A stretch of 64,000 bases of DNA from Naegleria gruberi (GCA_000004985.1 GG738912.1), one strand, 5' to 3'; shown: positions 5,254-38,500, numbered from the stretch's first letter. The notes: a model not told the origin generated them from the sequence alone. Made by a program: numbers and translations.

Positions 5254-5362
5254 ATAAATGTCAACTATTTCCAATTTAGTATTTTTGGACAACCAAAATT
5301 GTTGTATTTTGCTTTTTCGAAACTTTGTCATCTTTCCAACATACACAAAAAAATGCAACAAG

Positions 5363-16081: not shown

Positions 16082-19000
16082 TTATTGATTTGTTGGATAA
16101 TCCCAATAATTATTATACTTCTTTTTGTTTGGAGATTCCACTTGTTGAGCAAAGAATCTTGCATCTGGAGAAAATTCTTTGTTATCATAATAAACATAAT
16201 TGGTCACTGGAGGTGAACTAAAACCTCTTGGTCTCATGAATTGAATTGGAGTTGAGGATTCGAGTGGAACAGTCTTTCTCTTTCTCTTATTCACACAGTA
16301 CATGATACAGCAGAATCCAATTGTGGCAGCAATGGCCAAACAGAGAATTATATAAATGGCAACTCCCAAAATTAAATAATTGGAAAGGGAAAAGATATTT
16401 TTGGAAACTGTTTCAACAATGAAAACGTTGGTGAATCGAGAGCATTTACAAGTGGCAATATCTTGATTAATGCTCAATATTTTACAATTTGAGGAAAGAT
16501 CACCAGTTTGATCTGTAAAATCAACGCAGGAATATGAATTGTTTGAGGTTACAATTTCCAAATCAAGGAAGGTTCCAGCATAAGAAGACTGGTCTTGTTA
16601 ATTGGGAAGGTATAAATGACTCCACTTTCATCAATTGGGAAATCATTATCAAGTACATTAAACGAAACAATATTCGAAATGACATAGCTCTCTTTAAACT
16701 TAGAAGCATATTGGTCCATAGAAGCCAACTTGGTATTCAATCCATAAACATCCTGCATTGTAATCATAATATACGAGAATGGCTTCTTTACCAATGCAAC
16801 CTTACTGGCCTTGGCCAAGAAATTTCCATCCAATTCTACAATCGTTCCATAAGTAGGATCAACAATTTTAGGTTCATAATCATAGACGGTATGTCGATTA
16901 GTATTGACAGAGTAGAAATCACCCTTTCTGTTTTTAGCTGTTCCACCCAAGGTTAATGATCTACTTGTCAAGAAATTTGATGTTTTGGAAGCTGAAATTA
17001 ATTTGAGAGAGGAAGTTGATTGATTAGTTGAAGCTTTCTTCTTTGAGAGATAGGAATAAATTGATTTGATACAATTTTCAAATAATTGAACAATGGCATT
17101 GTCGACTTTCAATTCACTTGACAGGGCAACTCTAAGAACTGAATTTAAATTATTCAAAACTTGTGAAATTACTTCAGATGTCAAGGAATCAATATTAAGA
17201 AGAATCGAATCAAGTCCAAATCCAACCAATGATATGTAATCATCTGTAACTCCACTAATATTTGCCAACTGGACCATCATATTCAAAACAGAAACAGTTG
17301 TCTTTTGAACTAGGTCAAATTCTACAATGGAAATATCACAATTGTGTCCGATATATCCTTCAGCACATTCGCAATGGTTCGCAACTTCAACACCATTCTT
17401 GCAAGCTAACGATCTCTTAGCTGTTGCACTCTGTGAGTTGATATATTCCTTAACTAGAATGGCATCAGTTCTGGAGGTATAAGCAGATTGTGAAATACTC
17501 TGACTAATGTCACCAGTCTCTGAGAGTTTGACACTTGTATCTGTCCATACTTGAACTACACCTTCAATATCCTGAATAGTTGAATAAACAGGTGTAGTAA
17601 TTGAAATGTCATAATAGGAGATGACAGATGCAGATGTCTTTGTGTCCACAATTTCAATGTAACATTTCACAATAGTTCCAGAAGAAGGTGATGGAATCTT
17701 TGAAGAATAAATTTCTCCAAGGTTGTACAATGGTATCTTGGTTCCAGATCTATCATCCACAAATCCATAATTAAAGTCAATTGTCTTTTCAGAATTTTGG
17801 CAATTTACGCACGAGAATATAAAGTTAGTATCGAGAGCAATGCCTTCAGTTGGAGTAATTTCACACAAGCAAGGTTTTGGAGTGGTTGCAACTTGGAAAG
17901 TATAACTAGCACTTGATGTAGCTCCAGTAGAAGAATCAAAGCTTGAAATTTCAATATTATTCGTAGATCCTTCTGGCAATAATGAAGTATCAATAATCAC
18001 AGTACTTGTTGAACTAGTTTCTGATACTGTGTTAACTAATTGTCCATTAATATACCAAGTATTATTCAGTGTGGATGATTGAGATGAAACTAGAGTCTGC
18101 ATTGAGAAGGTATTACCAGATAAAATGTAACTAGTTGACGGTTCGATGGAAAGAACATTCAAAACAGGTGGAATATTAACAAAGTATGCTCTGATTGATT
18201 TGGAAATTGATCTTCCGTCTGATTTTACAATAGTGAGTGTGAAATCTACATAGTTTGGAATCTTTCCATTGAAATAAGAGGTGGAAATGATGACTAGAGT
18301 GGATTTTGAATTGGAAACAGTAAGTAGATAATCCTTTAAAAAGGTATTTGTAGAGTTCCAATTCCAAGTTTCAGTTGACTGAGTGTTCACTGTAGATTCA
18401 GGATCAGAATACATTACTTCAATAGTGGAAGACTCACTTGATGATTGGAGAATGTGCAGTTCAAGTAAAAGATCTGGAGATTTCGTATTCAATGTCACAA
18501 GGGAAGAAACACGAGCACTTGGATTGGAATTATAAAAAGCAGAAACTTTGAAAATATAAGTATTCATTCCGAATGTTTTCAGAGTTGAAATTAGCAGATT
18601 ATTGGCAGAATCTACTGAATATTCAATTGAAGGACCGCTTGTTTGTACCCATTCAACACTAATTGCTTCGCTTGATTGACAAGATGCTTCGGTTACTATC
18701 TTTTTGATAGTGAGCGGGAATTCATTAGAGTATTTTTCGTATAATGATTTGGAAACAACCAATGAAGGAAGTGGCTTTGAGGATTTGGTAAATACATTAC
18801 TATATGTAACACTACTACTAATTCCCAAATAGGAACTCTTTACAAATAATGTAATAAAGTAAGAACCAGGTGGTAAATTTGGACTAAGAGAAATAATTGC
18901 TTGATTTGGAACTATTTCACTAACTGATAGCGTACCGTTAGAATTATACAGAGCCCAAGTGTAAATTAAGGTCTTACCATCGGCTGAGAAACTTGAAGAA

Positions 19001-22000
19001 CCATCCACAGCAATCTCATCACATGAACTGTAAATGTCTACATTTCTCATTTTGATTATTGCTTGTGGTGGAGCAATAGATACCGGAGGAAGAATTACAA
19101 ATGAAAGATAATTGGTAGGTTGAGTGAAAATTTGATTGAAAGCTAGCGTGTTAAGTCTGATTGAGGTCATGCTCAAGATAATATTGTAATCCATTGATCC
19201 AAATGTAATTCTGAATAAAGAAGTTGACTTGTCAATAAATTGACACTTGACTAAGGAAGAGCTTCCGTAAATTCCATTGGTTAGGTCATTGGCATGGAGC
19301 AATTTACTGCATACGACATCAACTCCACTAATTGGTGGTGAATATAAATAAAATTCAACACCTCTAAAATCAGATGTCATTCTGACAGGACCTACAATTC
19401 GAGTTAAACAAGATTCTCCATAGTAACCACTTTGACATGTACTACATGAAGAACCTGTCCAATATCCTTCATTAGAATTTGAATAACATGTGCAAAAACC
19501 TTTTACATTACATTCTCCATGATTAGAACAAGTTTCAACTTTAGTACATTCTGTTATAGTTATTGAGTTGTTTGAAGGAGCATTTGGTGGAATGGAAGTT
19601 GTATTAGTTTTTACAGTTGAATTGGTAGTTGTTGTATTATTTGTTACAGTTGAATTAGTAATTGCTGTAGTATTTGAACTAGTTGTGGCATTCATAACAA
19701 CAGTCTCATTGTCTGCTACGGTAGTATTTTCTGTAACGTTTGTTGAATTTTCAGTTGGAACGGTCGTGGTTTCATTCATTGCATTACTAGAAGCATTGAA
19801 ACTATCAGTTGAATTAGTAGAAGTGACATCAGAACTGGTAATATTTTCTGAAATGGTCGTGTTGTTATCAATCAAAGTGGTGTTGTTAGAAATAGTTTCG
19901 TTCACTTGATCAGTGTTATTAGAGGAAACAGTTTCATTGGAGCTAGTAACTGTCTCATTAGAAATTGTTTGGTTAGTTTCACTCGCAGTACTATTTTCCA
20001 CAACAGTTTCATTTGAAATTTCAACACTTGTAGAATTATTGTCAAGTACTGTACTGTTAGTAATGTCTGTGGAATTTTCCACATTGGTTTGGTTAGCAAT
20101 TGTGGAGTTGTCAACAAGAGTAATATTTCCATCATTGAGAGTTGAATTATTTAAAATTTCTAATGTAGAATTATTCTCAATTGAAGTGGAATTATCAGTA
20201 ATGTTTGTTTCATTCGACTCACCAATAGATTCATTCAAAGCTGTAGAATTATTGGAAACTATGATGGTACTATTATCATCCGTTGTTGTATTGCTAATCA
20301 AACTGTTATTAGCATCAACTGTGGAATTATCCACAAATGTAGAATTATCAACCAAGGTTTCGTTTGCTTGAGTGATTGTTTCATTGGAGGAGCTAAAAGA
20401 GTCATTTGAAGCAGTTGTGCTATTGGTAACCACAACAGTGCTATTATCAGTTGTGGTACTATTAGACAAAGTACCATTATTAACATCACGATTATCCACA
20501 AATGTAGAATTATCAATAGAAATAGTTGTGTTATCAGTCAAGCTAATGTTAGAAGTTGTGGAATTGTCAACTTGAATACTTTCATTACTGATAACTTGAG
20601 TACGATTTTCACAGAATTGACCAAAATATCCTTCTGTGCAATTACAAATATCAGTAGAGACACAAGATCCATTTCCATTACAAACACTTGGATCAGTATT
20701 GAGTATTCCATTACATTTAAATTCAGAACAATCTGCTCCATAGAATCCATTTTCGCAACTGCAAGTATTATAATCCGTACAATTGCCTTTTCCTGAACAA
20801 ACGGAACTGTTGGACAAAATATTGTAACAAGTTGAAATTTCACAATTAGATCCATAATAATTGGAAGCACAATTACATGAATTAAATGAGATACATTGTC
20901 CATGGCCTGAACAAGTATCTGAAGAATTGTATAATACACCATTACAGGTTGTAACTGAGCAATCAGATCCGAGATAATTGGTGTGGCAATTACATTGGTC
21001 ATGAGATGTACACTCTCCATTTCCAGAGCAGGTCAAAGTATCATTAGATAACACATTGTTACAACTGGTGATTTCACAATTAGATCCAAAATAATTAGAT
21101 ATGCAATTACATGAATTAAATGAGCTACATTGTCCATGACCTGAACAAGAAACGGAGGAGTTGGATAATACACCATTACAGGTAGTAATTGAGCAATCAG
21201 ATCCAAGATAATTGGTGTGGCAATCACATTGGTCATGAGAAGTACACACTCCATTTCCAGTACAAGTCAATGTGTTGTTGGACAACATATTGTAACAAGT
21301 TGTAATTTCACAATTAGATCCATAATAATTAAGGGAACATTGGCAAGTGTCATAACCAATACATTGTCCATGAGAGTTACATACCAATGCATTATTTGAT
21401 TGGATATTGTTACAAGTTGTGAGTTCACAATTGGTTCCAAAATAATTGCTAATACAATTACAACTATTGTAAGAAGAACAAGTTCCCTTTCCATTATTAC
21501 AAACTTGTGCAGAATTTGAAAGAATATTGTTGCAACTGGTGATTTCACAATTAGATCCCAGATAATTAGCTTGGCATTGGCATTGATTAAGACTAACACA
21601 AGATCCCTTTCCTGAACAAACATTTGAAGAATTACTTGATATTCCATTACAAGTTGTAATAGAGCAACTAGATCCAGAATAACCAGAATTACAAGAACAT
21701 GAATCCGAGCTAGTGCAATTTCCGTGTCCAGAACAAACATATGAGGTATTTGTGGAAGCAATTGAAAAGCAAGAGTATGAAACAGGCGTCACAACTGAAC
21801 TACCATCACTATTGCCACTATTTCCACTATTTCCACTATTAGAAACTACAATGGAAGCTGCAGTTGGATCATAGCTTTGGCAATCGGTTCCATAATAACC
21901 AGAACTGCAAGTACAAATTCCTGCACTGCAAGAACCATGACCTGAACAAACCAATGATGATGATGTTGGAATGGCATTACATCCATCCATATCACAATTC

Positions 22001-25000
22001 ATGCCAACCTTGCCTTGTGGACAGGTTGGGAATAACAATCTCAACCTTCCAGTTTTAGATTCAGTATAGTAAATACCAAGATTTGAATACCAAACATTCA
22101 CTGGTTTGGATACATAATCACCGGAACCATCGAAACCATACAGAGGAGGACTAGTTGATGAGAATAAGGTAAATGTACCAGCATAGGTGGACAAGATATT
22201 GGAACTGACTTTTCTGATAGTTTGAGTTCCTTGATCAGCAATATAAATTTCATTTCTTGATTCATCGACTGAAACTCCGGTTGGATAGTAAAGTTTAGCT
22301 GTGCTACCATCAGCTTGTACGTTGGCTCCACATGAAGCACCAGTAGAACAATAACTTGTGGAACCAGCAACAATTGACATGGTTCCCGAGGAAAGCTTTC
22401 TAATCTTGTGATTCTATAAAGAAATGTTAATGAATAAATATTATTTGAATAACTTACTCCTGTATCGGCTACATAAATGGTATTACCATCTGAGCTCACA
22501 TATAAACCAGTTGGCTTTGACAATTTAGTCAAGAGAGGATTAGAATTATCACATGTTGCAGAGCCAGCAGTTGTACATTCAGTTCCTTCACCAATCACTG
22601 TAGTTAAAACATTATTATATATCATTCTAACTCTGTGATTCATTGTGTCGCAAAAGTAAATCTTGGCTCCAACAATGGCAATACTGGTTGGGAAATTAAG
22701 GGTTGCCGAGAGAGGAGCTCCATTATCACCACATGCAACACCAGAAGCTGGAGTACATGCTGTTGAAGTTCCTGCAACTGTGATTACCTTATTATTGGAA
22801 TCTATTTTTCTAATTCTGTGATATTCTGATTCAGAATAGTATATTTCACCTGTGGTTGATGATTTGGCGAGTCCAAAAGGAAATTGAATACCACTAATTT
22901 GATAAGTATCTTGAATTTTTAAGGAAGCTTGGTAGGCATAAGTGTTATCTGCGGTTTGACTTGAAGCAGTTGGTAATAAAAAGTTTCCTAAAATAGTATT
23001 GATTCTTCCTGTAGTAGCATCAAATTTAGCAATTCTGGCATAGTTCATGCTTGGTGTTGAGGCAAACAATTCACTATCGGCAGTACTTCCACCACTTGCA
23101 CCAATATAAATATCTCCATTAGAATCAATGAATAAACCAGCAGGTCTCATCAATTTAGTTCTCAAAGCAATTGTATTCTCTCCATTGTAAAATGAGTAGT
23201 CATTGTAATAGTGTCCAGAAGCTGAGGCTATATTTCCATTAGAATCGAGATATCTGATTGCAGAGAAAGTGAATCCACTGTAAGTACCTGAGTAGGAACT
23301 AGAGACAGCATCATCGAAATAGAGAGTTCCACTTGGTGAGAAGGAAATTCTCTTGGCAGATATCGGTGAGAGTGCACTTGACCATTCTCCCTTATTGGCA
23401 TAGGTAGCTCCATTACCAACCACTGTAGAAATGTAGCCAGTCGAAGAAACCTTTCTAACTCTTTCAGAATCACAGAAATAGAGCTCGTTTGTTGATGGAT
23501 GAATGTCCATATCATTCACTGTTAAAATTGTGGCACTTGTTGCAAGACCACCATCACCACATGGCTGTGTTGAGCAGGAAGTTCTCAATGTACCAACATA
23601 TTTGGTAATTGTGTTTCTATTGGCTGAAATCTTTCTAATATAATACAAACTAGGGTCAGCAACGAAGATTTCATTATTAGCATTGACAGCAACTACCTGA
23701 GGACCTCCAAAGGTTGCTGCCAATGGACTCCCTCCTTCACCACAGGTTCCACTATTACAACCAGTTGCCTGTATACCAGCAATGGTTGTAATAATTCCTG
23801 TTGCCTTACTGACCTGTCTAACAATACGATCTCCAAAAACAGCAATGATCAAATCATTATTAGGTGTGAGGGCTATACCTTTAGGTGTATTTAAGGAAGT
23901 TGCTGTGGCTGCAACGTTATTAGCATAGGAAGCACCACCTCCAGCATAGATGGACATGACACCTGTGGCATAATCAATCTTTTTGATATAATTGTCGTCC
24001 ACAAAGTAAATGTCATTGTTGGATTGATCAATGGCCATGTAAGTTTTTGATTTGTAAACTTGAGAATACTTGGCCAGATTACCAGCGCCAAAACCGACAA
24101 GAGCAGCGCTAGGATCAGAATAACCACCTGCTATTTTCTTTACAATAGTAGTATCTGGAGCAACTTGAAAGATTTCACTATCTGCCATGACGTACATGGT
24201 TCCATTCTTTGTAAAGGCAACTTTTGGATTGATTTTGAATTGAGTATTAATCATCTTATTGCCAAAACCATTAGAAGATTCATGAGTACCGGCTATACAT
24301 GTAACAACACCATCTTTTAACATTCTCAAACGATTACTCCTATGGAAATTAGAATAGAGAAATTATTAAGAAATAAAATAAGGAATAAAAAAACATACAT
24401 TTCAGTATAGTAAATAGTTGTACCATATGAAAAGACAGATTTGACTGCTTTTGCTTCATCGTTCGAAACATAAATCTTAATATTCGTTCCAATTTGGCCA
24501 TCGCCATTAGGTCCAATAGAAAAGTAATAAGCTGATGGCCAAACATTATTACCATTACCAATGACGGTTGAAATTATTCCAGTTACAAAGTCTACTTTTC
24601 TAATTCTATAAACTGTAGAATCTGAAAATATTAAATCTCCATTAGAAAGAACAGTCAAGCCCTGAGGATAACTGAGCAAGGCACTTAATGCGCTACCTCC
24701 ATCACCACATGCAGCCATTGGGGTAGTTGCGCATGAGCTAAGAGGTGTACCAGCGTAACGTTGAATCATGTTGGTTTGAGTATTCCACCTTCTAATCACA
24801 GAGTTGGTCTTGTCTGAAATGTAGACATACAGACCATCAGAAGAAACAGCAATACCACCTGGAGTTTGAAACCTAACTGAAGCATCTGAGATGAAACCTC
24901 CATCACCTTGATAACCTTGGTTGCTAGCATCACCATATTTTGCTATTAAAAGGCCAGTAGCTCTGTCAATCTTTCTAATCTGGTTGTTGGAGGATTTACC

Positions 25001-25675
25001 GTCTTCCATGATGAAAATGTGATTTGGTGAGACAGCAATAGTGTGAGGATTGGTGAGTGTTTGTGAATTTAACCCATTACCATAGAATAAGGTTATAATT
25101 CCACTCGTTTGGTTCACCTTCTTAATATTGGAATTGTAATAATCCAAAATATAAACTGAGCCATCAACTGGATCAACGGCACATGTATGTGGTCTTAAAC
25201 CAGCCTCAGTTGCCTTAATATTATTTCCACAAGGACCGTTTGAGGCAGATGAAGTACAAGATATTGATTGATAACCATTGCCCGCAAAGTGAGTGGCAAC
25301 ATTAGAGCCTGCCGAAATTTTGAAAACCTTATATTGTCCATCATCACAAATGAACAAATCACCAGTTTTAATGTCAGCACAGCCACCACCTCTCACATCC
25401 TTAAAGAATAAATTGGATGCATCAGAGTCTATTTCAGTTAAATGTCGATAGATGCCTGCCATGGTCCTAGAGCTTGTTGCTGCATGTACGGAATGATGAA
25501 TTATACTAATATGAAGAATGAATAATTGGAGAAGGACTAGGAGAAAGTATGTGAAATCCGAAATTCTCTTCTTCTTCTTCCCACTATTAGCAAGAGTTGT
25601 TAACCTAGCAGCATGCTGCTTTGAATATTGTACACTGATACCGAGAAGAGACATGTTATTGTTACTTTTTATCAC
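16082..25675 (-). CDS. Giant type-I receptor-like protein, paralog B (~3200 aa): signal peptide, NHL beta-propeller repeats, tenascin-type EGF array, N-glycan stalk, PKD/REJ-like module, GPS-like motif, TM, tail. Contains a 1-nt frame break near the 3' end
   Basis: Four track ORFs (24326-25675, 22098-24329, 16549-22380, 16082-16561) form one gene. Intron 24340-24398 (59 nt, GTATGT..ATAG) joins '...GTTIYYTE' to 'MSNRLRMLKDGVV...'. Intron 22414-22457 (44 nt, GTAAGT..TATAG) joins '...TIYVADTG' to 'NHKIRKLSSGTMSIVAG...', rebuilding a canonical NHL repeat (YVADTGNHRIRK). The N-terminus 'FTYFLLVLLQLFILHISII' is signal-like. The C-terminal part aligns with paralog A (TSLLML/TPLGFL..SYSCVDF/SYSCGDF, CKCSRFTNVF/CRCKRFTNVF). 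The frame shifts by +1 between ~16565 and 16590; the track's 'M' at 16561 is a TTG. Confidence 0.75.
19560..20590 (-). repeat. Low-complexity N/S/T-rich region encoding ~80 N-glycosylation sequons (stalk of paralog B)
   Basis: The translation is 'NESIQVDNSTTSNISLTDNTTISIDNSTFVDN...NSTVKTNTTSIPPN'. The region spawns long spurious antisense ORFs in the track (19568-19909, 19913-20371 and others). Confidence 0.8.
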
Positions 25676-26896
25676 TACTCTAAAATAACGATATTATGCT
25701 TCCTCACTTCTAAATCTCTCTCTTGTATTTTGAGTAACTGTAAATCGCTTTTTTCTTTGTCTGCTTGATAACACAATCATATATTAATATCATGGCTGTT
25801 TGTTGGCATTGAGAGGGACCAAAGTGGTTCATTAAGAAGAACCGCATCTTCCACAGTAGTATCGATCCTTAATTGTGCTTTTTGTGTACCTATTTGACTG
25901 GTGCAGGTGTGAAGGTTCATTAAAAATTACTGCAATCTTTTTGTGGAATGGTTTTGGACTTTTTGGAATCTTTCCCAGATGCTTTAAGATGAATGGCTCA
26001 CTTTGTACACTCTGAAAATGACCTATAATATCCTCTTTTGAACATGTTGAAAATTTCAATTGTTTCAAGGAGTAACTTGCAAGCAAATTTTAGCAAATTA
26101 GTGGTATGGAATCCTAGTCGGAATAGAGGGTCATATATAGACACAGTAATATTAATATTATCACTGTTATCGCTCACCTTAATCAATAGTTTCAACTTGA
26201 AAACATAGCAATGACCAAAGTCTGCCACGACGATCCGCAAATTTGTTGCTTCTAGTGATCCATACATTATTGTAAACAAAACTTCAAGTCAAAAGAATCA
26301 ACCTGTTAAAACAAGTGTCATTCACAATTGTTTAAATTGTTTGGAATGAACATGAAAGGAATAAAAACCAAATCGTTATCGAGTTTCTACTCTTCTGAAA
26401 GTTATGACAAAGCAATAGAAAGCAACTTGAAGACTAAACCGAATAAAAAACTATTATTCTAATCCATAAGACGTAGCACGTTACAATTCTATACAATGAA
26501 ACCTGCAGATGTTTTGACCAAATAATTACCAATTATTTTCCTATTATTATTATCGGATTCGGTATTTGTATTTTCATGAAGACATCAATAACAAGCATGT
26601 CTTTTTGCTAAAAACAGTTCCGTGATAGCTTTTGATGTCAATGTTTGTCGTTCCTTCCTTCCAACATCAAACTTTGAATTTCCTCATCAGCACATTTAAA
26701 TTCTTTTTAATTTTTTTCTAATTTTAATTTAAATTAAAAATGCACCAAAGCAACGACGATTGAAAAGAAATGATGGTTGTAGTTTGTTTGGGAACCGATT
26801 TTTGGATGATGGTTTTTGATGTAGTGTTCTTCTTGTATTCATCATTAACTCAAAATACTCATCTAAGAAGAACAAGAAAAAAGCAAAAAACATTAT

Positions 26897-29800
26897 ATGA
26901 TGTTGAATCCAGCAACATACAAACAATCATCTTCTTCAACTGTGGATGCTAATACAGCCTTTCCCTTGAGGGGAGGCACAACAACTTCATCTGATTTTTC
27001 TGATACTTCATCAACATTTAGGAGACCTTCTGCTGATGTTGCAGCCTTCAGCTTCAACACTTCGAATCCTGGAAGAAATGATGAAATTTCTGATTCTGTT
27101 CAAAGCTCCACTGAATCAATGACAGCAACATCCTCCTTCATCAATCACACAAAGGAAAATATACTTACCATGTTGGTTTCATTGCAAGAGAGGGCTCCTG
27201 TTACGGGTTGGAAAAACTACATTTTCTACTTGATGTTTTATATCTATGTCTTGTGGTGCCAACTGTTTGTGCCAACTGTAAGAAATTTCAACTGGGGAGA
27301 GGAAGGAAAATACGTATTCAAAGTAATTAATTTTCCAACAACTTTATTGTTTGATTTGGTTCCATATTTTGGAACTGTTGGAATTGCAGCTGTGTTCATG
27401 TTCATTGTTTTATTGACAGCTGTCTTGTTGTGTTCTGCCTACTACTTCACTATCAAGCCAAGCAAACATGCCAAATATGTCACAAATTCTTTGTGGTACT
27501 TGAGTTTTTGTGTCAAAATATTTGCATTGATTGGAACTCACTTACTGGCTGGCTTTTTTGATTGTAACCTTTCAAATCAAATTTCCATAACTGTTTCCTC
27601 CACTTCAGGCACAAGTACAAGTACGTTAATGTCCTCTCTCAACAGATTTTCCAATGTTGGTTGTATAGAATCGAATAATGATATCGTTATAGCATTTAGT
27701 TCCCTCACAATAATAGTACTCGTAATCATTTACCCTTTCGTTGAATATACAACTAGTAATTGCAATCCTCAAAGTAGACTTCCACTGACTTCAGAAAGCT
27801 CATTTTTGTGGAGTGTTTTGGGAGTTTGTAATATTATAGATCTTGTAATTTCTCAGTCAATTCCTATTCAATATTCATACATAGCTGCGAGTATTCATAT
27901 TGTCATTTCCATAGCTTGTTGTTTGGTGATTTTTAAATCCTTATCCTTCTTTACACATTATGAAAATGCCATCATACAGAGTATTTATGTGGGAAGAACT
28001 GCTGTGAGTATCGGTTCTCTAATTTCCTCATTGTCAAACAGTGGCAATAACTCAGAGTTAGGTGGAGGATTTGTAGGTCTTGCTATTGGTCTATTGATTA
28101 TTGGAGCTGTTATAGGATTCCTCATTCAATTCCTAATTCTCTTCTTTAGAATGAAACAAATCAAGAATTTCATAATACAAAATTCTCAAACAGAAAGCAA
28201 AACTCAAACAGATGAAGATAACCTCAAACAATTATATTCATGTATTGAAAGAATGTCCTCGGTACTCTATGCGGATTTGGAAGATTCTAAAAGATTGAAC
28301 TCTTTGAACATGTTTTTAAAGTTATCTCTCAAACAAGGTGATGCAAGAATATCATTCCACTTTGTAAAAGGACTAGCTCAAAGCAAAATGTTCAACAATC
28401 CAAAGGCTTTAATATACTCTGCTTTGTTGGTTCAACTTTATTGGTCTGAAGAACAGAGTGCCTCTACATTGGCAAATAGCTTTTTAAGAAAGGCCTTAAA
28501 AAATGATCCGTCCCCACTTGAAAGGTTAGTTATTCAAGAACGAATCAAAGAGGTTGAAACCATGTCCAACACAAAGAACAGCCTATTTGAAATAGCAGGC
28601 CAAATACAAAAATTAGAAAGATATCAAACTAGTATTCTTACTTTACATAAGGATTTGTGGAAAGAGTTAGCAAACGAACATCTCAACTATGATTCCATAC
28701 AAAAGATTAATAGAAATATATCCAGTTTGACTTCAGAATGTAAATCCACATTGAACAGTCTCTATTTTAACTATAAGAATAACAAGACAGTCATAAGAGT
28801 TTACGCTCACTTTATTGAAAACTTTGAGTTTAACAAACCTTTAGCAGATTCACTTTTTGCTGAAGCTAACTCTTTGGAGGAGGAGGAAATTAAAAGAAGG
28901 AGAAGACCATCTCAAAGCAAATCCACCAAAAAGAGTCTGTATGCAGCAAGTAACAGGGTTGTTCCAAATGACAAGTATGAGATTTCCAGTGCATTTCATG
29001 AGGAATCATCCAACTATGATGTTGTAGAAAATGCAAAGATAGAAGAGATGGATGATGCCTTTGATAATCCTCAAATCAAGAAGGAGACACTATTTTTGAA
29101 TGCCATTTCCATACCAAAATCAAATAGCTTAGTCAGGAGCTTGTCTACTATTTATTTTGTGTTTGTATTTGTGTGTATTGTTGCTTCTATTTCTCTTGGA
29201 GTTATCTATTCTTATAACGTAAAGTCAACTGTTCCATATGTTGAACAAGTTTGCTTTCCAGGAACTGTTCCATATGCTCTTATAAGAAGTATCAGAGCAT
29301 GCCAAAATTGGATGAATACATTTTATTTCCAAGAGGTTGAATGGCCTGTCTTGAACGAAGGCTATCCAACCATTACAAAAACTGTCTATATCAATGATCA
29401 CAAGAATAGAATGAACAATAGTATAATAGCTTTGAAGAAATTAATTGCCGTTGGTCAACTTGGAGTATTTACTGATTCTATTTATAATGATTATTCTTCT
29501 AGTGTTTATACTGTAAATTCTCCTACTGAAGATAGTACTACTCCAAAGTTATATACAGGTACTTATCAAACTAGAAATACATCTATTGTCGATATAACCA
29601 ATTCTCTGATAAAATATGCAGAACTTATGATGAACGACTATCCTCAGTCAACGTTGTTAAAGTTAGAAAACAAGTCACTGTCTTACAATGAAAGGCAATT
29701 ACTCCTCAACCAAACTTCACAAATGGAGTATTTCAATCCTCTAACAAACTTTAATTTTAATTATTTATGGGCTAACAAGGGTACGTTTACAACTGCCTAC

Positions 29801-32273
29801 GAAGCCTTTTGTACCAAATATTTGGATAGTAGTATTTCAATAATTAATGAAAGTGTACAACAGTTCATGATTTACACAGTCTCTATTTTAGGCATATTCA
29901 TGGCGGTGAGCTTTGTTTTCTTAACAATTTTATTGATAGAGCTAGCAAGTATGAAAAAGATCATCAAATTATTTGAGAGGAATATCAAAAAAGACATTGT
30001 TGGAAAGATTTTCCATACCATTTCAGCCAAAATTAAAAGCGAGACCGTGAGCAATTCCAACTCTCTTTCTATGGATAAAATCAAGCCAAACCTGGTCATA
30101 ATTATTAGTACTCTAATTGTACTATTAGCTGCATGTGGATGTATTGCTCTAATATTTTCAGAGACCTATCTTAACAGCCGAGATTCTGTAAACATCATGA
30201 CTCGAGTTCGCCTTTCTATCCAAACAGCTGTCAGTGTGGAGAGAGTAGCATTCTTTGCTCAGGAATATTATACTTACTTTGGTGCTGAACAATTCACTTC
30301 ACCAACAGCATCACTAAGGTATCTTATTAAAAGGCCTACAAGTTTTGGAGATATGAGATTGTGGCAAGTGAGAAGTAGATTTGATGCATTGGTTAGCAGA
30401 GTCAATGACGGTGTTGCAACTGCTTCAGATTACATGAGCAAACTAATCTATGGCTCTACTGATTTGAATCTTGAACCGATAATGGGTATATATCCAAGTG
30501 TCGATAAGATTATTTCCATTGGTACTGATAACTGTACTGAATACATGAAGCAAAACGGTATTGCATACACATATGCTAGTTTTAAATTGTATTGTCAAGG
30601 ATTGGAAACTGTTTTTTCAGATTTTGCTACAACTGCTCCACAGTTGGTAACTGATTCGAGGAGACATTATGCTATGCAGCAAACATCTGCAATGAATGGC
30701 ACACTCTTAGATCCTTTTGCCTTGGCCATGAGAACCAACAATTTACTACGTTTATCCCTTCCATTAATTACAAAGTACACAACTTTTATTAAGGAGTTTG
30801 TAAAAGCTTCATCCAGTCCAGTAGTTGTACTCACTATTTCTTCTGCTTGTTTGGGAATTTCAATAATATTAATTTGCTGGTTCATTTATGGGACTATGAT
30901 TTCCAACTTTTGGACTCATGTTCATTCTTTCAGACTCATGTTAAATTACGTACCAATCGATGTTCTAGATCATAATGAAAAGTTAAGGGCTTTTGCATTA
31001 TATAACAAAATGGATGGAAAGACTGAAACTAGAGCCAAGAGAAATACCAACTCGGAAGAGGATGAATATTACAATTTGAAGGTGGTTTTCAATTCTAGCG
31101 TTGAGGGAACCATGATTTGTTCGGAAAATGGAGAAATTGAACTTTTCAATTCTTCTGGTTTAAGAATGTTTGGAAGTAAGAGCATTGACATTCTAGGAAC
31201 TTCAATGTTTGACTTGTTTGATATTCCTTGTAGGGATGTTGCAAAAAGAACTGTTGCCCATTTAGTGAATCAATGTAAGGAGCAACGTTCTGATGAAGAG
31301 AACGCAAACGTAGAAATATTAGATATAGAATTTTTGAGAAAGAATCAAACCAAGTTTCCTGCCAAAGTTACCATCTATGCTGTTCAATTTGCTGGAAAGA
31401 CAACAAACATTCTCGTTACATTCAAAGATGTTACATCAGAGAAGAAATCAAACATGCTATTGTCTGATGAAAAGAAGAAGAGCGACAACTTGTTGAAGAA
31501 CATTTTACCAAATCAAGTTGCCAATCGTTTAAAGTCAGGCGAGACATTTATCGCTGAAAAGTTTGATGATATAACTTGTTTCTTTAGTGATATGTAAGTA
31601 TTCAAGTTGGCAATAATTATTTAATTACACTTGTAGGGTTGGATTTACAAGAATAAGTAGTAAGATGCAACCAACAGATCTTGTTAAAATGTTAAATAGT
31701 ATTGTGAATGGATTTGATGTATTGACAGAGAAGTATGAATTGGAAAAGATCAAAACTATTGGAGATGCTTACTTTCTAGTTGGTGGTCTTCACAATTCTC
31801 AATCTGATCATCCAGAACGTGTTTTAAAGTTTGCCATCGATGCATTTGGAGTCATTCATCAATATAACAAGAATAAGGTTGTGGAAACGGAAGATATCAA
31901 TATAAGAGTGGGTATTAATACTGGGGCTGTAGTTGCTGGTGTAATTGGCTCAAAGAAATTTGCCTACGACTTGTGGGGTGATGCAATCAATGTGGCATCA
32001 AGAATGGAATCTACTGGAGTACCCGGAACTATTCAAATATCACGATCAACCTATGAAAGAGTCTTTGATTTGGGTTATGAATTTGAGGAACGTGAAATTG
32101 AAGTTAAAGGAAAGGGGTCTGTAAAGACCTACTTGATGAAAAAGACGCATTTGCAAGAGCTCAACGTTTCACACCTTCTCACAACTCAACAATCTCTCAG
32201 AAATGTTGTCACCTCACAACAGAGCTTGTTTGGAATATCTGCTGCTTTGAGAAGAGATGATGATTTAAAGTAA
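26897..32273 (+). CDS. Receptor-type adenylate/guanylate cyclase (class III) with multi-TM N-terminal region and PAS domain; 2 exons
   Basis: Exon 1 is 26897-31593 and exon 2 is 31637-32273. The 43-nt intron (31594-31636, GTAAGT..TTGTAG) splits '...CFFSDM|VGFTRISS...', i.e. inside the conserved F(F/S)D(I/M)VGFT cyclase motif. The catalytic core 'IGDAYFLVGG...RVGINTGAVVAGVIGSKKFAYDLWGDAINVASRMESTG' is in exon 2. The PAS-like segment 'GTMICSENGEIELFNSSGLRMFGSKSIDILGTSMFDLF' lies upstream. Exon 1 has at least two blocks of TM helices. Confidence 0.85.
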
Positions 32274-32301
32274 CCTAAATACATTACAATAAATTTAACA
32301 A

Positions 32302-32327
32302 ATGATGAACAATTAATGTTAGGAACA
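32302..32327. repeat. 26-nt conserved motif, copy 2
   Basis: See copy 1. This copy lies 29 nt downstream of the cyclase stop codon. Confidence 0.6.
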
Positions 32328-32527
32328 AATTTATTGTGATATTATTAAAACCTACTGTTGAGGATGATTAGTGAAAATTTTGACTTTTCCAAGAATTAAA
32401 TTACTAAATATTGATTTCAGCAAATGGCTTTCACACTGCAAAACCATTCTGACCCACCAAAATGGGTAATTCGCAGAATTTTTTTGCGTAAATTAGTTTA
32501 ATTATTTTCTAATAGATTTTGATTTTA

Positions 32528-35500
32528 TTAAACAGTCGATTTCAATTCATAATTTTGCGGAGCAGCATGTTCTTTACCCTTCTTTCTTCTGAGGACACAG
32601 ACAATCAATCCAACAACAGCTACGATAATAAGAAGAACTGGAATAATTAACAAGATTAAGGCGATATAGTCCAAATTTGGAGTAGCTGGTGCAATTGGAG
32701 TTGGGTTTTGAGTAGTGGTACTTGTTTCTGGTTGAACATCAGGAGTAGTAGATGAAGATATTCCAATAACATAGGAACCAGTTGAGTTAATAGAAACTAC
32801 ATAAGAATCTGGGTTTGTACCAAGAATTGAGCAGGATGATGATTCGGTAATGGCTCCATTGACAACCATGTTACACTTTGGTTCTTGAAGAGCTCTGACA
32901 CTTGAATTTGACTTTTCAATGGTCAATTGAGCAATTGATTTGCTGTATTGAATCAAGACATTGCTGTTATCAGTACTTGAAACCACAAAGTCAAAGATCT
33001 TTGAAGTGGACTTGAATGTAGTATTGCTATTTTCATAAACCTTCATTGAGATTTTAACACTGTCCAAGGAAGAAACTTGTGGAATTTCACTAAAAACTGA
33101 TGAGAGATTGAATGAAGTGATACCATTTTCAGCAACGCTTTCGAATAAACCATTCAATGAAGCAATATTTACCAATCTTACATATGAAAGTGATTTAATA
33201 CCAGATCCTCTAACAGCAGGCATATCAGGAACAACATTCTTCAACTTGATATTCATCAAGTTATTCTTAACTTGGTCAATCTTGTTCAAATCTTCAATTG
33301 TAAAGCTAGAAGCCATTAAACTTCTCTTTCCTCCCAAGCTAGTACTGACATAGCTTTGAATGGTTGATGCAGAATCAGTGGATGATTTAATTTCTTCATC
33401 AGACAATGAAATTGAACTTGATGATGAAGCTCCATTTGTTGCAGATTGGAATTTTTCAATAATCATTCTAATAGTTTCATCTGGTAAGTTGTCAACACAG
33501 GAACTAATTGATGAAATGACTGACAAGGTTGAAGATGTTGAAGTAGAGGTTTGACTACTCAACTTTTCTTCAGTTGCCTTTTGTTCAAAGAATGAAAGAA
33601 CAATTTGCTTACCAACTTCAGCCAATAGTTTCTTTTGTTCTGGATCATCTGTTTTAACAGATTGAATAACACTCAAGGCAGAGGAAACTGAAGATGTTGT
33701 CATTGTTCCACTTGAAGAACTTGTTAAAGCTGTAATGGCAGTTGAGGCATCCTTTGGCATACTTACTGAAACAGTTGTGGTTGTTTCAGATGAAGCACCC
33801 TTAGAATCAAAGACAACAACCTTAATTTCCAACTCACCAGCAGGGAGTGAGGTACCAAATGATCTAGTTTCAGATTTTTCTTTCAATAGTCTCCAATTAG
33901 TGTCTGTACTTGTCTTGGAGTAGAATGCAAATGATAGTGGAAGTTGTGGATCAGACCAACCATTACCACATGAAATCTTAAATTCATCAGATAGGGCAAT
34001 ACCACTCTTTGGAGATACTTCAAGAGTACCCACAGTTGGAGGAGAGTTAACAGTGAATGACAATGAAGCTTCACCACTCTTTTGACCATCAACAACCTTA
34101 ATAGTTAGGGTATAGGAAGCACCTGGTGCCAATAATGATTTTGGAATGACAATGTATTGCTTTGAAATGTCAACTGAAGAATCAAAAGTAAAATCACTTG
34201 AAGACCAAGTAAATAATCTGGCACTCGTTAAAGTATCCAAAGAAGTTGTTTGTAAAATTAAATCACTTGATGGATCGACGGCAACAAGATCAGCATCTTT
34301 TGGAGCAGAAATTGAAACTCTCAAAACAGTTGACTTGGATTGATCAGAAACAGTTACCTTAACAGAAGCAGTTGATGTACGAGTTGACTTGGTATAAGTG
34401 GCAGTGAAAGAATAAACACCTGGGGTCATTGTCTTAACCAATTTGAGTGTTGATTGATCAATATTTTGTGCACCATCAACAAAACCTTCACAAGTTGAAG
34501 CAGTATCAATGTTTGAACATGAAATTGAGACTTCTCCACCAGCTTCAGTTGGATTACTTGGATCTTGTTTAGAAATTGTGAAACTAACTGGATCTTCAAA
34601 TGATTGAGTCATATCACGAATATTGAAAGCAACTTTCAATGGTAAAGCAGTTGCTGTAACCTTAAAAGTAACTGATGCTTCTGGTGAATTATCTTCCTTG
34701 GCAGTTAATTTAAAGACATATTCTCCTTCTTGAGTCAATTGAGTATATTCATTACTAAATACTAAAAGTTCATTCTTTTGTTTGAGAATTAAAGGACTTC
34801 CACTTTCCAATGAGTAGGTATAAACCAAGTTACCACTTCCCTTATAACATGATGGGAAAGTTACAATTGGTGAAATAATATATGGACTTCCAATAACCAT
34901 TGAACTTTCCAAACCATTCTTAATTGAAATAGTTGGAGGAGTAGCAGCAATAACACTAAATGTAACAGAGGCAACTGATTCCTTGAGAGAAAATGAACTC
35001 TTAACAGTCACTTGAACGACATAGGTTCCAACATCCAAATCAGATGCTGAAAATTTAACACCAGGAGTTGACAGTTTTGAAATGATTGAATCTAAAACTT
35101 CAGTACTTGAAGGAGCCAAAGTTGTTGTCCATGAATAAATCAAAGATCTACGATCCAAACTTGAAGAACCAGATGCATCCAAATAAATAGAACCACATGC
35201 CTTTGAAATAGTGGACTTGTCAGCAATCAAAACAGCAACTGGATCAACAGCCTTATAGCTCATTTGTGCTACAGTAACATAGGTGGTCAATTCACTATCA
35301 AAATATTTCTTGACATTCAAAGTTCCACCAATGGTAATTGATGAAGAGATACCCAAGGTAATAGTCAATAAACTCTTTTCACCATTCAATGAGCAAACAG
35401 GATTAGTTCCCAAAACTTGTGAATTTGTAATCAATGAAGAACAGTCAATTCTCTTTCTCAAACTACTCATAACAGTAGCAGTGATGGAATCACCATTTTC

Positions 35501-38500
35501 AGAGAAACCAAATGAACTAGTATCAATACTAAAATCACACTTTTCACCAAACCAACCAGATTTACAAGTTTGACAATTGGCACCTTCTGCATTACCTGAA
35601 CATATGCATGATCCATCATTTGAACAAGTTCCCTTTCTATTACAAGTAGTTTCGGCAGAACATTGATATTGACATTGATCACCAACATAGCCATCAATAC
35701 AACGTTCACAGAATGGACCAGTAAACTTATCAGAANNNNNNNNNNNNNNNNNNNNNNNNNNNNNNNNNNNNNNNNNNNNNNNNNNTCTAATATCCTTATC
35801 AATGTAATTTCAAACACTCTTACACAATCTAGTTTCAGGAGTTGATGGAGAGTTACAAGATTGAATGACAGAATAGCAAGCAAGTCTTGCATTTGACTCT
35901 TCACATGTAGAATTACAAACTGTACCTTGTCCTTGAATCTTTACAATATTTGAATCATAGAGAGATTTAGCAGACTTGTCAAGTTGACTCATGGCATTAG
36001 TAATCAATTGTCTAGCATCAGTTGCATTGGCAGCTCCAGATGAGTAATGAGTATTCAATACCTTAAAGTTTTGAAGATGTGTTTTACAGAATGAAAGTCC
36101 AGAAGGTGGAATAGGAACACATGAGGCAGCTGGTGTATAAATAGTACAATCATCTCCAGTAAATTCAGGTGGACATACTTTAACACAGTTTCCTTGAGCA
36201 TTCTTTACATATCCGGAAATACATGAACCACATGGATTTGTAGCGAGTTCAGTAACATACTTTTCTTGACATTTACAATAACCTTGATAACCAGTGGTGT
36301 CCTTGTAGACACATTGTCCATATTGACCACATCCATCAGCACAATCAGCTGGTAAACGAATACAATTACCATTTTCATTATTGAAACCAAATGGACATAC
36401 ACAAACACCTTTTTGTAAAATAAATCCAGTCTTACACGAGCTACACAAGTCTCCAACAAATAAATCGCTTGTACATTGACACTTGGCAATACCAGTTGAG
36501 TTGAGACAAACACCTCCATTCAAACAAGTAAGTTTACAAGCAACTTCTGGTTGACCAGGAGCAGTTTCACACAATGAACCAGAATAACCATTAATGCATG
36601 AACAAAATTCCTTATTGGAAGCATCAAATTTACACAATCCTCCATTCAAACATTGCTTTGAACAAATTTTCTTTTCACACAAATCACCTTCATAACCAGA
36701 ATTACAATTACATTTAGCAATACCAGTAGAGTTGGCACATTGACCACTGACACATTTCAAGGTGCAAGGATTTGGAATCTTCTTTTCACACAAATCACCT
36801 TCAAATCCTGAATTACAAGTACATTTAGATACACCATTGACATTGTCACATCGTCCGTAAACACATAGTAAATTACATGATTGTTTTTCACACAAATCGC
36901 CTTCAAAACCATTGTTACACATACATCTGGCTGTTCCTGTTGTGTTTGAACAAAGACCATTGACACATTTCAAGGTACATGGATTTGGAATCTTCTTTTC
37001 ACATAAATCACCTTCAAATCCTGTATTACAATTACATTTGGCAATACCAGTTGTATTTGAACATTGTCCACTTACACATTTCAATGTACATGGATTGGCT
37101 GATAGTTTTTCACACAAATCACCTTCGAATCCATAATTACAAACACACTTCATCACACCATTGACATTGGTGCATTGACCATTGACACACCTCAAAGTAC
37201 ATGGTGCAGTTGTTTGTTTTTCACATAGATCACCTTCATAACCAGTGTTACAAACACATTTAGCAATTCCAGTTGTGTTAGCACATTGACCATTGACACA
37301 TTTCAGTGTGCAAGGATTGGCTGATTGTTTTTCACATAAATCGCCTTCAAACCCTGGACTACAAATACACTTCATCACACCATTAACATTTGAACATTGT
37401 CCATTGACGCATTGTAAAACACATGGTGTGGTGGATTGTTTTTCACACAAATCACCTTCATAACCAGTATTACAATTACATTTGGCAATTCCAGTTGTGT
37501 TAGTACATTGGCCATTGACACATTTCAAGGTACAAGGATTTGGAATCTTCTTTTCACATAAATCACCTTCAAATCCTGAATTACAATTACATTTCTGAAC
37601 TCCATTAACATTTGAACATTGACCATTAACACATTGTAAAGAACAAGGGGCATTGGATTGCTTTTCACACAAATCACCCTCATAACCAGCATTACAAATA
37701 CACTTTGGTGTTGCACCAGAACCAACACATTGACCATAAACACATGCCTTGCCACATGGTGATCTTTCTGGTACAGAACAAGTCTTTCCAGAATAACCAG
37801 TATTACAATTACAATAAGCTGGATTTTGATAAGAATCAGCAGTTCTCATCATGACAGCTTCATCTCCAATTAAGACACTAGTGCCAGAGGTACAAGTACT
37901 GTTAGTTTGAATTTGACAGAATTGACCTGTTTTACCAGAAGTACAAACACAACTACTTGTTCCATAGCTGCATTAAAGTAACTGAAACCAACATTGGTAC
38001 AATAATTATCATAATTGACGCAAGTTTTAGCATTGTAACGAGCAGTAACAGCAATACAGACTGGATTAGATGCTGGACAATCAAGACTAGTGGAACATTG
38101 TTCTTGGCATAATCCACTTCTACATTCAGAGTTATAATAACCCATTCCCAAACAATCAGCTTTAGTTTCACATAATCTGGCAACACATTTCTTTTGGTTA
38201 TTACAATATGGGGTCTTTGTGGAAGCTATTCCTTGACAATCAGCATCAGTTGCACATTGTTCAACACATTTAGTGTTTGAGCATTTTGGTTTGTTTGGAT
38301 CTTTACAATCATTATTACTTGAGCATTCAGAATGACAAATCATTTGACTTGAATTTGTGGAAATTAAAGAAACAGAAAAACTTCTAGAGGATGCAACAAT
38401 ACAAGATGGATAATTTGGATTTGTACAATCAGAGTTTGAGGAACACTTTTGATATGAACATCCCTTATATCCAAGAAGTAAATCTTGGCAAACTTCATAT

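What the first reader, a model, noticed from the sequence alone, without database searches (positions are those of the whole stretch)
26897..32273. PAS-coupled receptor cyclase whose catalytic FxDIVGFT motif is split by a 43-nt intron
The architecture is multi-TM sensor + PAS + class III cyclase. This type of PAS-cyclase architecture is expanded in Naegleria-type amoeboflagellates, and this gene sits between two of the giant receptor genes. The intron (31594-31636) interrupts the codon for M in 'FFSDM|VGFT'. A phase-2 intron inside the most conserved catalytic motif is a useful phylogenetic marker for this cyclase subfamily.
Basis: partly seen in the sequence, partly recalled or inferred. Interest (0 to 1): 0.5.

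Follow-up and report, generated by a model that had tools for sequence, protein, structure and literature searches.

The report
Split-annotated Naegleria PAS adenylyl cyclase gene
This is one ordinary Naegleria gruberi gene for a membrane receptor-type adenylyl cyclase, and its real 43-base intron inside the catalytic motif led the public annotation to split it into two incomplete "predicted proteins".

Summary
ORF 26897-31597 ends ...FFSDM*, and its stop codon comes from the GTAAGT donor of a 43-nt GT-AG intron (31594-31636, phase 2). Splicing joins it in frame to 31637-32273 and gives a 1777-aa protein.

The architecture is about 11 TM helices, a TmcB-type TPR region, two helical ~220-aa loops, a PAS domain, a transducer helix and a complete class III cyclase domain (Pfam 3-182/183, E 1.6e-55). 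All six catalytic residues are present in the adenylyl (Lys/Asp) configuration.

The window is Naegleria gruberi. GenBank carries this locus as two adjacent models: NAEGRDRAFT_74210 (1566 aa, no cyclase domain) and NAEGRDRAFT_74211 (194 aa, cyclase lacking its first 33 profile positions).

The paralogue pair 61738/61737 is split the same way. A contig of that paralogue shows an intron at the identical position. It is 50 nt rather than 43 and its sequence has diverged, while the flanking exons are conserved. Exon 2 has dN/dS of about 0.09.

Two environmental heterolobosean homologues share the exact position. Others lack it or have introns nearby, so it marks a subset of the family, not the whole family. 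No RNA evidence was available. This is an ordinary member of a known expanded family, and its main value is an annotation fix.

The parts
26897..31593 (+). Exon 1 (codons 1-1565 plus the first two bases of codon 1566). It encodes the sensor, the PAS domain, the transducer helix and the first strand of the cyclase domain up to FFSD(M).
   Evidence: ORF. It is 100% identical to N. gruberi XP_002670700.1 / NAEGRDRAFT_74210.
31594..31636 (+). 43-nt spliceosomal intron, GTAAGT...TTGTAG, phase 2, splitting the Met1566 codon (AT|G) of FFSDM|VGFT.
   Evidence: The same position occurs in paralogue contig L087 (50 nt, diverged sequence) and in L083 (37 nt) and L085 (58 nt).
31637..32273 (+). Exon 2 (third base of codon 1566 to the stop at 32271-32273). 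It encodes the rest of the cyclase catalytic domain and a 43-aa tail.
   Evidence: Residues from Met1581 onward equal the separate public model NAEGRDRAFT_74211 / XP_002670701.1. dN/dS versus the paralogue is 0.09.
27221..28147 (+). N-terminal block of about 7 predicted transmembrane helices (residues 109-417).
   Evidence: Kyte-Doolittle scan. This block is conserved across the heterolobosean family.
28580..28888 (+). TmcB-type TPR region (residues 562-664) inside a long segment inferred to be cytosolic (418-751).
   Evidence: Pfam PF25474, 47.8 bits against a cutoff of 27.
29150..30877 (+). Four further TM helices (residues 752-770, 996-1014, 1068-1086, 1309-1327). They bracket two ~220-aa all-helical loops (771-995, 1087-1308), presumed to be extracellular sensor loops.
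   Evidence: TM helices. AlphaFold2 model is all-helical, pLDDT 62, pTM 0.60. No significant fold match was found.
31076..31435 (+). PAS domain (residues 1394-1513).
   Evidence: Pfam PAS_9 E 5.5e-14 and PAS E 8.6e-6, both above their cutoffs.
31445..31546 (+). Helical linker / cyclase-transducer-like element (residues ~1517-1550, ...LLKNILPNQVANRLK...).
   Evidence: Weak HNOBA C-terminal match at 1517-1545. It aligns to the helix preceding C2 of AC9 and is conserved in the family.
31553..32141 (+). Class III nucleotidyl cyclase catalytic domain (residues 1553-1734), interrupted by the intron. The catalytic set is Asp1565 (31589-31591), Lys1605 (31752-31754), Asp1609 (31764-31766), Asp1677, Asn1684 and Arg1688.
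   Evidence: Pfam PF00211, 188 bits, profile 3-182/183. Alignment to AC9 C1 and C2. Residue positions.

Best explanation
Coordinates 26897-32273 (+) hold one two-exon Naegleria gruberi gene. A canonical 43-nt GT-AG intron (31594-31636, phase 2) sits in the codon after the first metal-binding aspartate of the cyclase motif (FFSD-M|VGFT).

The spliced mRNA encodes a 1777-aa polytopic membrane protein. In order it contains:
- about 7 TM helices;
- a cytosolic TmcB-type TPR region;
- four more TM helices bracketing two helical ~220-aa loops, inferred to be extracellular;
- a cytosolic PAS domain;
- a helical transducer element;
- a class IIIa cyclase domain.

The single catalytic domain carries both metal aspartates (D1565, D1609), the adenine-specifying Lys/Asp pair (K1605, D1677) and the transition-state Asn/Arg (N1684, R1688). 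The protein is therefore predicted to act as a homodimer with two symmetric active sites that make cAMP from ATP. Activity would be set by signals passed from the membrane/loop sensor and the PAS domain through the helical linker.

Shown here: the gene structure, the domain content, the catalytic residue set, conservation of the intron position in the paralogue, and purifying selection on exon 2.

Inferred: splicing in vivo, dimerisation, ATP specificity, membrane topology and ligand. The PAS cofactor and the loop ligand are unknown.

The public annotation cuts the gene at the intron into NAEGRDRAFT_74210 and NAEGRDRAFT_74211. This happens because the donor GTAAGT creates an immediate in-frame TAA.
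For: - Sequence and frame.
- Domains: Pfam matches a complete cyclase domain only in the spliced product. The public models separately give no cyclase domain (74210) and profile positions 34-182 only (74211).
- Identity and locus tags.
- Junction peptide: it is identical to the family consensus CFFSDMVGFT in N. gruberi, N. fowleri and Acrasis homologues.
- Paralogue: 61738 ends at the same ...CFFSDM, and its cyclase half is the adjacent model 61737. Contig L087 physically links the two halves through a 50-nt GT-AG intron at the identical position. The splice sites are conserved, the intron sequence has diverged, and the 7-nt length difference is not a multiple of 3.
- Other homologues: the same position and phase occur in L083 and L085.
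- Selection: exon 2 has dN 0.096 and dS 1.07, ratio 0.09.
- Local intron census: other ORF-joining introns in the window are 42-59 nt with GTAAGT/GTATGT donors, so 43 nt is typical here.
- Solved structures: the closest are AC9, AC8 and AC5 (both C1 and C2 align) and mycobacterial Cya/Rv1625c-type enzymes, E down to 8e-70. The alignment shows the catalytic residues.
- Family distribution.
Against: - No transcript evidence could be consulted. The spliced protein could not be looked up, and no Logan or transcriptome-derived protein spanning the junction appeared.
- Two alternative in-frame acceptors exist, at 31660 and 31699.
- ATP specificity, dimerisation and regulation rest on residue homology, not assay.
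- The TM count and topology come from a simple hydropathy scan.
- The loop model has only moderate confidence (pLDDT 62) and no significant fold match.
Confidence: 0.88

Rival explanations
1. Two separate genes, as in the public annotation: a 1566-aa sensor/PAS protein (74210) ending at TAA 31595-31597, and an independent 194-aa cyclase-domain protein (74211) starting at Met1581.
For: This is how GenBank/RefSeq and UniProt list the locus. The same two-model split is annotated for 61738/61737 and for N. lovaniensis C9374_012435/012436.
Against: - 74211 would lack profile positions 1-33, including the first metal-binding Asp.
- 74210 would carry a 14-residue stub of the cyclase domain.
- The two ORFs are separated only by a canonical intron that restores the frame.
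- Family members modelled through to the C-terminus carry sensor, PAS and cyclase in one chain.
- Metagenome gene callers that cannot splice produce the same truncation at introns. This shows the split is a caller artefact.
Confidence: 0.04
2. Decaying gene or pseudogene: the stop after FFSDM is real and the downstream cyclase ORF is a relic.
For: There is an in-frame stop inside the catalytic motif, and no expression data were available here.
Against: - Exon 2 has dN/dS of 0.09 against the paralogue.
- All six catalytic residues are intact.
- 212 codons stay open, P about 1e-7.
- GT and AG boundaries are conserved in the paralogue while the interior diverges with a non-3n indel.
- The identical arrangement occurs in four independent genes.
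Confidence: 0.03
3. The intron is real but is used as a switch. Retention, or use of the alternative acceptors at 31660 or 31699, would yield a cyclase-less PAS receptor or an inactive enzyme lacking VGFTRISS, which could modulate signalling by heterodimerising with the full-length form.
For: Retention terminates translation one codon after the donor. Two in-frame alternative acceptors exist. The position in the catalytic core is kept in several family members.
Against: An immediate stop is a generic consequence of any phase-2 GTAAGT donor. The alternative acceptors are not conserved in the paralogue, where the exon 2 start is identical. No transcript data were available. Other family members lack the intron entirely.
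Confidence: 0.05

Closest known systems
Heterolobosean TmcB-like sensor / PAS / class III cyclase family. Examples: N. gruberi XP_002676156.1 'adenylate/guanylate cyclase', NAEGRDRAFT_69917, N. fowleri FDP41_011611, N. lovaniensis C9374_003576, Willaertia magna ABK040_006139, Acrasis kona KAL0481386.
   Same: The whole architecture and the order of modules are the same. The sensor is 26-60% identical and the PAS-cyclase part is 50-70% identical. The juxtamembrane LNY(V/I)P motif and CFFSDMVGFT are conserved.
   Different: Nothing differs in kind. This locus and its paralogue are annotated as split halves. Intron content differs between members.
Homodimeric class IIIa adenylyl cyclases such as Mycobacterium Rv1625c/Cya (PDB 1yk9, 4p2f, 5o5k), and the C1/C2 domains of mammalian membrane adenylyl cyclases (AC9 7pd4, AC8 8buz, AC5 8sl3).
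   Same: The catalytic fold and all six catalytic residues are shared. A helical element precedes the catalytic domain. E values range from 8e-70 to 1e-41.
   Different: There is one catalytic domain per chain, as in Rv1625c and unlike the mammalian C1+C2 pseudo-heterodimer. The membrane anchor is unrelated (11 TM with a TPR insert and two large loops, versus 6 or 2x6 TM). A PAS domain is inserted before the transducer helix.
Cyanobacterial PAS/GAF/receiver-coupled class III cyclases (e.g. Oscillatoria, Kamptonema, Tychonema proteins).
   Same: These are the nearest cyclase domains outside Heterolobosea, at 50-57% identity. Some have PAS immediately upstream.
   Different: They are soluble or differently anchored bacterial proteins. 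They have no TmcB-like sensor and no introns.
Dictyostelium TmcB (tiny macrocysts protein B) family, the source of Pfam PF25474.
   Same: A TPR-like cytosolic region lies between transmembrane blocks. PF25474 scores 47.8 bits against a cutoff of 27.
   Different: Only this region was matched. The relation of the rest of the protein to TmcB was not tested. I know of no cyclase output in TmcB (own knowledge, not checked).

Membership tests
Class III nucleotidyl cyclase (Pfam PF00211) | Full-length match to the catalytic domain profile above the curated cutoff | tested here: met
   188 bits against a cutoff of 21.9, profile 3-182/183, residues 1553-1734 of the spliced product. The two unspliced halves give no match or a partial one.
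Class III nucleotidyl cyclase (Pfam PF00211) | Two metal-binding aspartates (FxDIxGFT and IGDxY motifs) | tested here: met
   D1565 in FFSDMVGFT and D1609 in KTIGDAYF. Both align with the AC9 C1 motifs FADIVGFT and TLGDCYY.
Class III nucleotidyl cyclase (Pfam PF00211) | Transition-state Asn and Arg (xNxASRM motif) | tested here: met
   N1684 and R1688 in AINVASRME, aligned with TVNIASRMD of AC9 C2.
Adenylyl (rather than guanylyl) cyclase | Lys and Asp at the two purine-specifying positions (guanylyl cyclases have Glu and Cys) | tested here: met
   K1605 (KTIGD) and D1677 (YDLWGD), aligned with the K and D of AC9 C2 (KTIGATY, YDIWGD). The rule itself is established knowledge of class III cyclases.
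Adenylyl (rather than guanylyl) cyclase | Measured cAMP synthesis | not testable with these tools
   Needs an enzyme assay.
Class IIIa, homodimeric type | A single catalytic domain carrying all six catalytic residues, preceded by a helical transducer element | tested here: met
   There is one PF00211 domain. All residues are in one chain. LLKNILPNQVANRLK aligns to LLRNIIPYHVAEQLK before AC9 C2. Dimerisation itself was not tested.
PAS domain | Profile match above the curated cutoff | tested here: met
   PAS_9 52.7 bits (cutoff 27). PAS 26.2 bits (cutoff 22.6).
LOV-type (flavin, light-sensing) PAS | Conserved GxNCRFLQ motif with the adduct-forming cysteine (own knowledge of LOV domains) | tested here: not met
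   No NCRFL-like motif in residues 1394-1513 (sequence, read by eye). The cofactor is otherwise unknown.
Spliceosomal (U2-type) intron | GT...AG boundaries, and removal restores one open frame | tested here: met
Spliceosomal (U2-type) intron | Position conserved in homologous genes while the interior diverges, with length changes that are not multiples of 3 | tested here: met
   43 nt in the window, 50 nt in L087, 37 nt in L083 and 58 nt in L085, all phase 2 in the same codon.
Spliceosomal (U2-type) intron | Spliced junction observed in RNA | not testable with these tools
   No transcript collection was accessible.
TmcB-like membrane proteins (PF25474) | TPR_TmcB profile match above cutoff within a multi-pass membrane protein | tested here: met
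   47.8 bits against 27. About 11 hydrophobic helices. Homology of the remaining regions to Dictyostelium TmcB was not tested.

The most novel reading that the evidence does not exclude
The intron that splits the catalytic motif is an old position in heterolobosean receptor cyclases. It has been kept in several lineages because regulated retention truncates the protein one codon after the donor. That would produce cyclase-less PAS receptors that dampen cAMP signalling, for example during amoeba-flagellate-cyst transitions.
Probability: 0.05. Interest if true: 0.5.

Novelty: new member of a known kind. Interest (0 to 1): 0.22.

Why it matters
The value is practical, not conceptual. At least three loci are deposited as a sensor/PAS "predicted protein" plus an orphan, N-terminally truncated cyclase fragment: N. 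gruberi 74210/74211 and 61738/61737, and probably N. lovaniensis C9374_012435/012436.

Merging the halves changes their predicted function from unknown to receptor adenylyl cyclase. It also slightly alters counts of cyclases and PAS proteins in Naegleria. Short introns with GTAAGT donors that create instant stop codons appear to be a recurrent cause of truncated models in heterolobosean genomes.

The intron positions in this family are unusually variable. That gives material for studying intron gain and loss, but the motif-splitting intron cannot serve as a clean family-wide marker.

Tried and rejected
- Paralogue DNA by exact protein look-up: N. gruberi proteins P0001, P0002, P0004 and P0005 are not on record.
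- JGI metagenome scan with the linker plus cyclase: it returned only bacterial-type, uninterrupted relatives at 45-52% identity and no close eukaryotic relatives. This was a dead end for intron comparison.
- A wrong provisional inference: I concluded that exon 2 was not annotated anywhere. One search overturned this. Exon 2 is the separate model NAEGRDRAFT_74211. One search had also failed to return P0001, so absence from that word-indexed search is weak evidence.
- AlphaFold2 of residues 734-1340 with a 5-sequence alignment: an all-helical model of moderate confidence. Foldseek against the PDB gave nothing significant; the best hit was a chemoreceptor at E 0.29. No fold is assigned to the loops.
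- Literature: the search for TmcB returned only unrelated uses of the acronym. The N. gruberi genome paper is not held.
- Alternative acceptors at 31660 and 31699: rejected because they delete conserved VGFT... residues, and because the paralogue conserves the 31636|31637 acceptor.
- RNA genes: Rfam and tRNA scans of 26000-33000 found nothing. Minus-strand ORFs inside the gene have no credible domain hits.
- NJ tree of the PAS-linker region: it is rough, has no support values, and some segments were mis-extracted. I used it only as a hint that intron-bearing genes are not one tight clade.
Full report
**1. What is in the sequence**

The + strand ORF 26897-31597 (1566 codons) ends ...FIAEKFDDITCFFSDM followed by TAA. 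The G of the last ATG and the TAA belong to GTAAGTATTC, and 43 nt further on lies CACTTGTAG|GGTTGGATTT.

Removing 31594-31636 joins AT|G and continues GTT GGA TTT ACA... This gives ...CFFSDMVGFTRISSKMQPTDLV... and an uninterrupted CDS of 1777 codons ending at 32273. With the intron kept, all three frames are closed.

At this base composition, 212 open codons downstream of the intron would occur by chance with P of about 1e-7.

**2. Domain content**

The spliced protein matches Pfam as follows:
- Guanylate_cyc (PF00211) over residues 1553-1734, profile positions 3-182 of 183, E 1.6e-55, with the junction at residue 1566 inside the match.
- PAS_9 and PAS over residues 1394-1513.
- A weak match to the C-terminal helix of HNOBA at 1517-1545.
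- TPR_TmcB (PF25474) at 562-664.

A hydropathy scan gives about seven helices between residues 109 and 417, and single helices at 752, 996, 1068 and 1309. The last four bracket two loops of about 220 residues each.

An AlphaFold2 model of residues 734-1340 is entirely helical but only moderately confident (pLDDT 62, pTM 0.60). It has no significant structural neighbour in the PDB.

If the cyclase domain is cytosolic, the two loops are extracellular and the TPR region is cytosolic. This topology is an inference.

**3. Organism and annotation status**

The unspliced ORF is 100% identical to N. gruberi XP_002670700.1 / EFC37956.1 / D2VYR1 (NAEGRDRAFT_74210), a 1566-aa "predicted protein" ending in FFSDM.

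Exon 2 from Met1581 onward is deposited as the next gene, NAEGRDRAFT_74211 (XP_002670701.1, 194 aa).

Scanned separately, 74210 has no cyclase domain. 74211 matches only profile positions 34-182, so it lacks the first metal-binding aspartate. The public annotation therefore cuts one gene at this intron.

I had provisionally concluded that exon 2 was unannotated. One search corrected that.

**4. Evidence that the intron is real**

(a) The junction peptide equals the uninterrupted CFFSDMVGFT of N. gruberi, N. fowleri, Acrasis and environmental homologues.

(b) The closest paralogue, NAEGRDRAFT_61738 (60% identity), is also modelled as ending at ...CFFSDM. Its cyclase half is the adjacent model NAEGRDRAFT_61737.

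(c) Contig L087 encodes the last 47 residues of 61738 exactly, and its cyclase-half product lies in the same 90%-identity cluster as 61737. It links the two halves through GTAAGTAG...ATTTTAG at the same nucleotide position and phase.
- This intron is 50 nt rather than 43, a difference that is not a multiple of three.
- Its interior has diverged.
- The flanking exon sequence is nearly identical.

(d) Across exon 2, dN is 0.096 and dS is 1.07, a ratio of 0.09. This argues against a pseudogene.

(e) Two further homologues on metagenome contigs carry an intron in exactly the same codon and phase:
- L083: 37 nt, AT|T, giving the canonical FFSDIVGFT.
- L085: 58 nt, AT|G.

(f) Other ORF-joining introns in this window are 42-59 nt with GTAAGT or GTATGT donors, so 43 nt is typical.

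Two in-frame alternative acceptors exist, at 31660 and 31699. They would delete conserved residues, and the acceptor at 31636|31637 is the one conserved in the paralogue.

No RNA data could be consulted. Splicing in vivo therefore remains inferred.

**5. Is the intron a family marker?**

Only for a subset. The positions found are:

| Locus | Intron near the motif |
|---|---|
| Window, L087, L083, L085 | Phase 2 in the Met/Ile codon of FFSD(M/I)VGFT |
| L001 | None in the motif; 76-nt phase-0 intron after ...SEKK |
| L082 | None in the motif; 44-nt phase-1 intron in ...IMP\|D |
| L086 | Phase-2 intron 6 nt upstream, in the Ser codon |
| L084 | GTAAGT donor 1 nt upstream; canonical splicing would shift the frame |

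The L084 arrangement appears in two independent assemblies and remains unexplained.

Truncated models elsewhere in the family end at several other points, such as after FAY, in the L of DLWGD, and after WG. This indicates many different intron positions.

A rough NJ tree of the PAS-linker region does not place the intron-bearing genes in one tight clade. The position is therefore shared by several members, but lineage-specific loss, gain or sliding is common.

**6. Function and mechanism**

The closest solved structures are mammalian AC9, AC8 and AC5, where both C1 and C2 align, and mycobacterial Cya/Rv1625c-type homodimeric cyclases. E values run from 8e-70 to 1e-41.

The alignment shows D1565 and D1609 at the C1 metal-binding positions. 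K1605, D1677, N1684 and R1688 sit at the C2 substrate and transition-state positions.

One domain therefore has the complete set, as in homodimeric class IIIa enzymes. The Lys/Asp pair predicts ATP as substrate (established rule for class III cyclases).

The segment LLKNILPNQVANRLK aligns with the helix that precedes the catalytic domain in AC9 and is conserved in the family. It is the likely signal-transmitting element between the PAS domain and the catalytic dimer.

The PAS domain has no LOV-type cysteine motif. Its ligand and that of the loops are unknown.

**7. Family and context**

An exhaustive HMMER search with residues 90-1289 against 1.84 billion representatives found only 126 relatives. 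All those with names are heterolobosean. Nearly all full-length ones end in PAS plus cyclase.

The nearest cyclase domains outside the group are cyanobacterial, at 50-57% identity.

The literature reports at least 81 cyclases in Naegleria (PMC9928731) and 50-80 PAS proteins in N. gruberi (PMC10468136).

- NHL/teneurin-EGF on the minus strand at 16549-25675.
- REJ/PKD/EGF on the minus strand at 32528 to about 40214.

There is no second cyclase in the window, and no RNA gene in 26000-33000.

**8. Verdict**

The object is an ordinary member of a known, lineage-specific expansion of receptor-type adenylyl cyclases.

The one useful new point is that the public gene models for this locus, its paralogue and probably the N. 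lovaniensis counterpart are split at short introns and should be merged.

Noticed in passing
L087 463-507 versus window ~31905-31915: The 61738/61737-type paralogue has a second short intron (45 nt, GTATGT...TATAG, phase 2 in the Arg codon of NIR|VGIN). The window gene lacks it. Because it is in frame and stop-free, public model 61737 reads through it as a 16-aa insert (YVLIGDGNIINQIHSY).
   Followed up: partly
window 31637-31906 versus L087 193-462: Synonymous divergence between the two paralogues is far lower in the first 90 codons of exon 2 (dS 0.19) than in the 47 codons before the intron or the rest of exon 2, where it is saturated. The protein is 100% identical there between 74211 and 61737. 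This suggests a recent gene-conversion tract starting at the intron's 3' end.
   Followed up: partly
L084 5421-5512 (also P0254 from an independent JGI assembly): A homologue has GAC A|GTAAGT...CTAG|GGTTGG at the same motif. Canonical GT-AG splicing leaves the frame off by one, yet the downstream cyclase exons are well conserved. It could be a non-canonical boundary, a 1-nt slide, or a recently disabled gene.
   Followed up: partly
L083 3029-3125: This environmental homologue is intron-rich in the cyclase domain. It appears to contain a 13-nt micro-exon (ATCAAAACAATTG, encoding IKTI-G) between two GTAAGT introns, inside the KTIGD metal/substrate motif.
   Followed up: no
window 35736-35785: A run of 50 N (assembly gap) lies inside the downstream minus-strand REJ/PKD/EGF giant gene, between ORFs 32528-35470 and 35810-37852.
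   Followed up: no
window 14943-14995, 15383-15440, 24340-24398 (-), 39911/39926-39967 (-), 58553-58597 (-): Other short GT-AG introns (42-59 nt) appear to join long ORFs. Examples are in a cytochrome P450 gene (14288-~15900) and in the upstream NHL/teneurin-like gene. They were found by a mechanical scan and not individually verified.
   Followed up: partly
P0124 / P0258 (N. lovaniensis C9374_012435 and C9374_012436): The best non-gruberi relative is also deposited as two adjacent models. The sensor+PAS model ends at ...EKKQNALL and the 213-aa cyclase fragment starts at MQASELV. The segment carrying NILP...FFSDMVGFT is in neither model, which implies at least two unmodelled introns.
   Followed up: partly
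P0125 (N. gruberi XP_002676156.1) residues 1-160: This annotated 'adenylate/guanylate cyclase' paralogue begins with an NHL-repeat-like segment. It then joins the family alignment only from about query residue 503. This looks like a gene-model fusion with an upstream NHL gene. The window's cyclase gene also has an NHL gene as its upstream neighbour, though on the opposite strand.
   Followed up: no
window 1-7348 (+), 41728-46182 (-), 52899-54560 (+), 60277-62463 (+): Other genes in the window: a further EGF/REJ giant surface-protein gene running off the window start, another EGF-rich 1484-aa ORF, a DNA photolyase/cryptochrome-family gene, and an Hsp70.
   Followed up: no
Outside Heterolobosea the most similar cyclase domains are cyanobacterial (50-57% identity, some with PAS directly upstream), not those of other eukaryotes. 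Whether this reflects ancient transfer of a PAS-cyclase cassette or just slow evolution was not examined.
   Followed up: no
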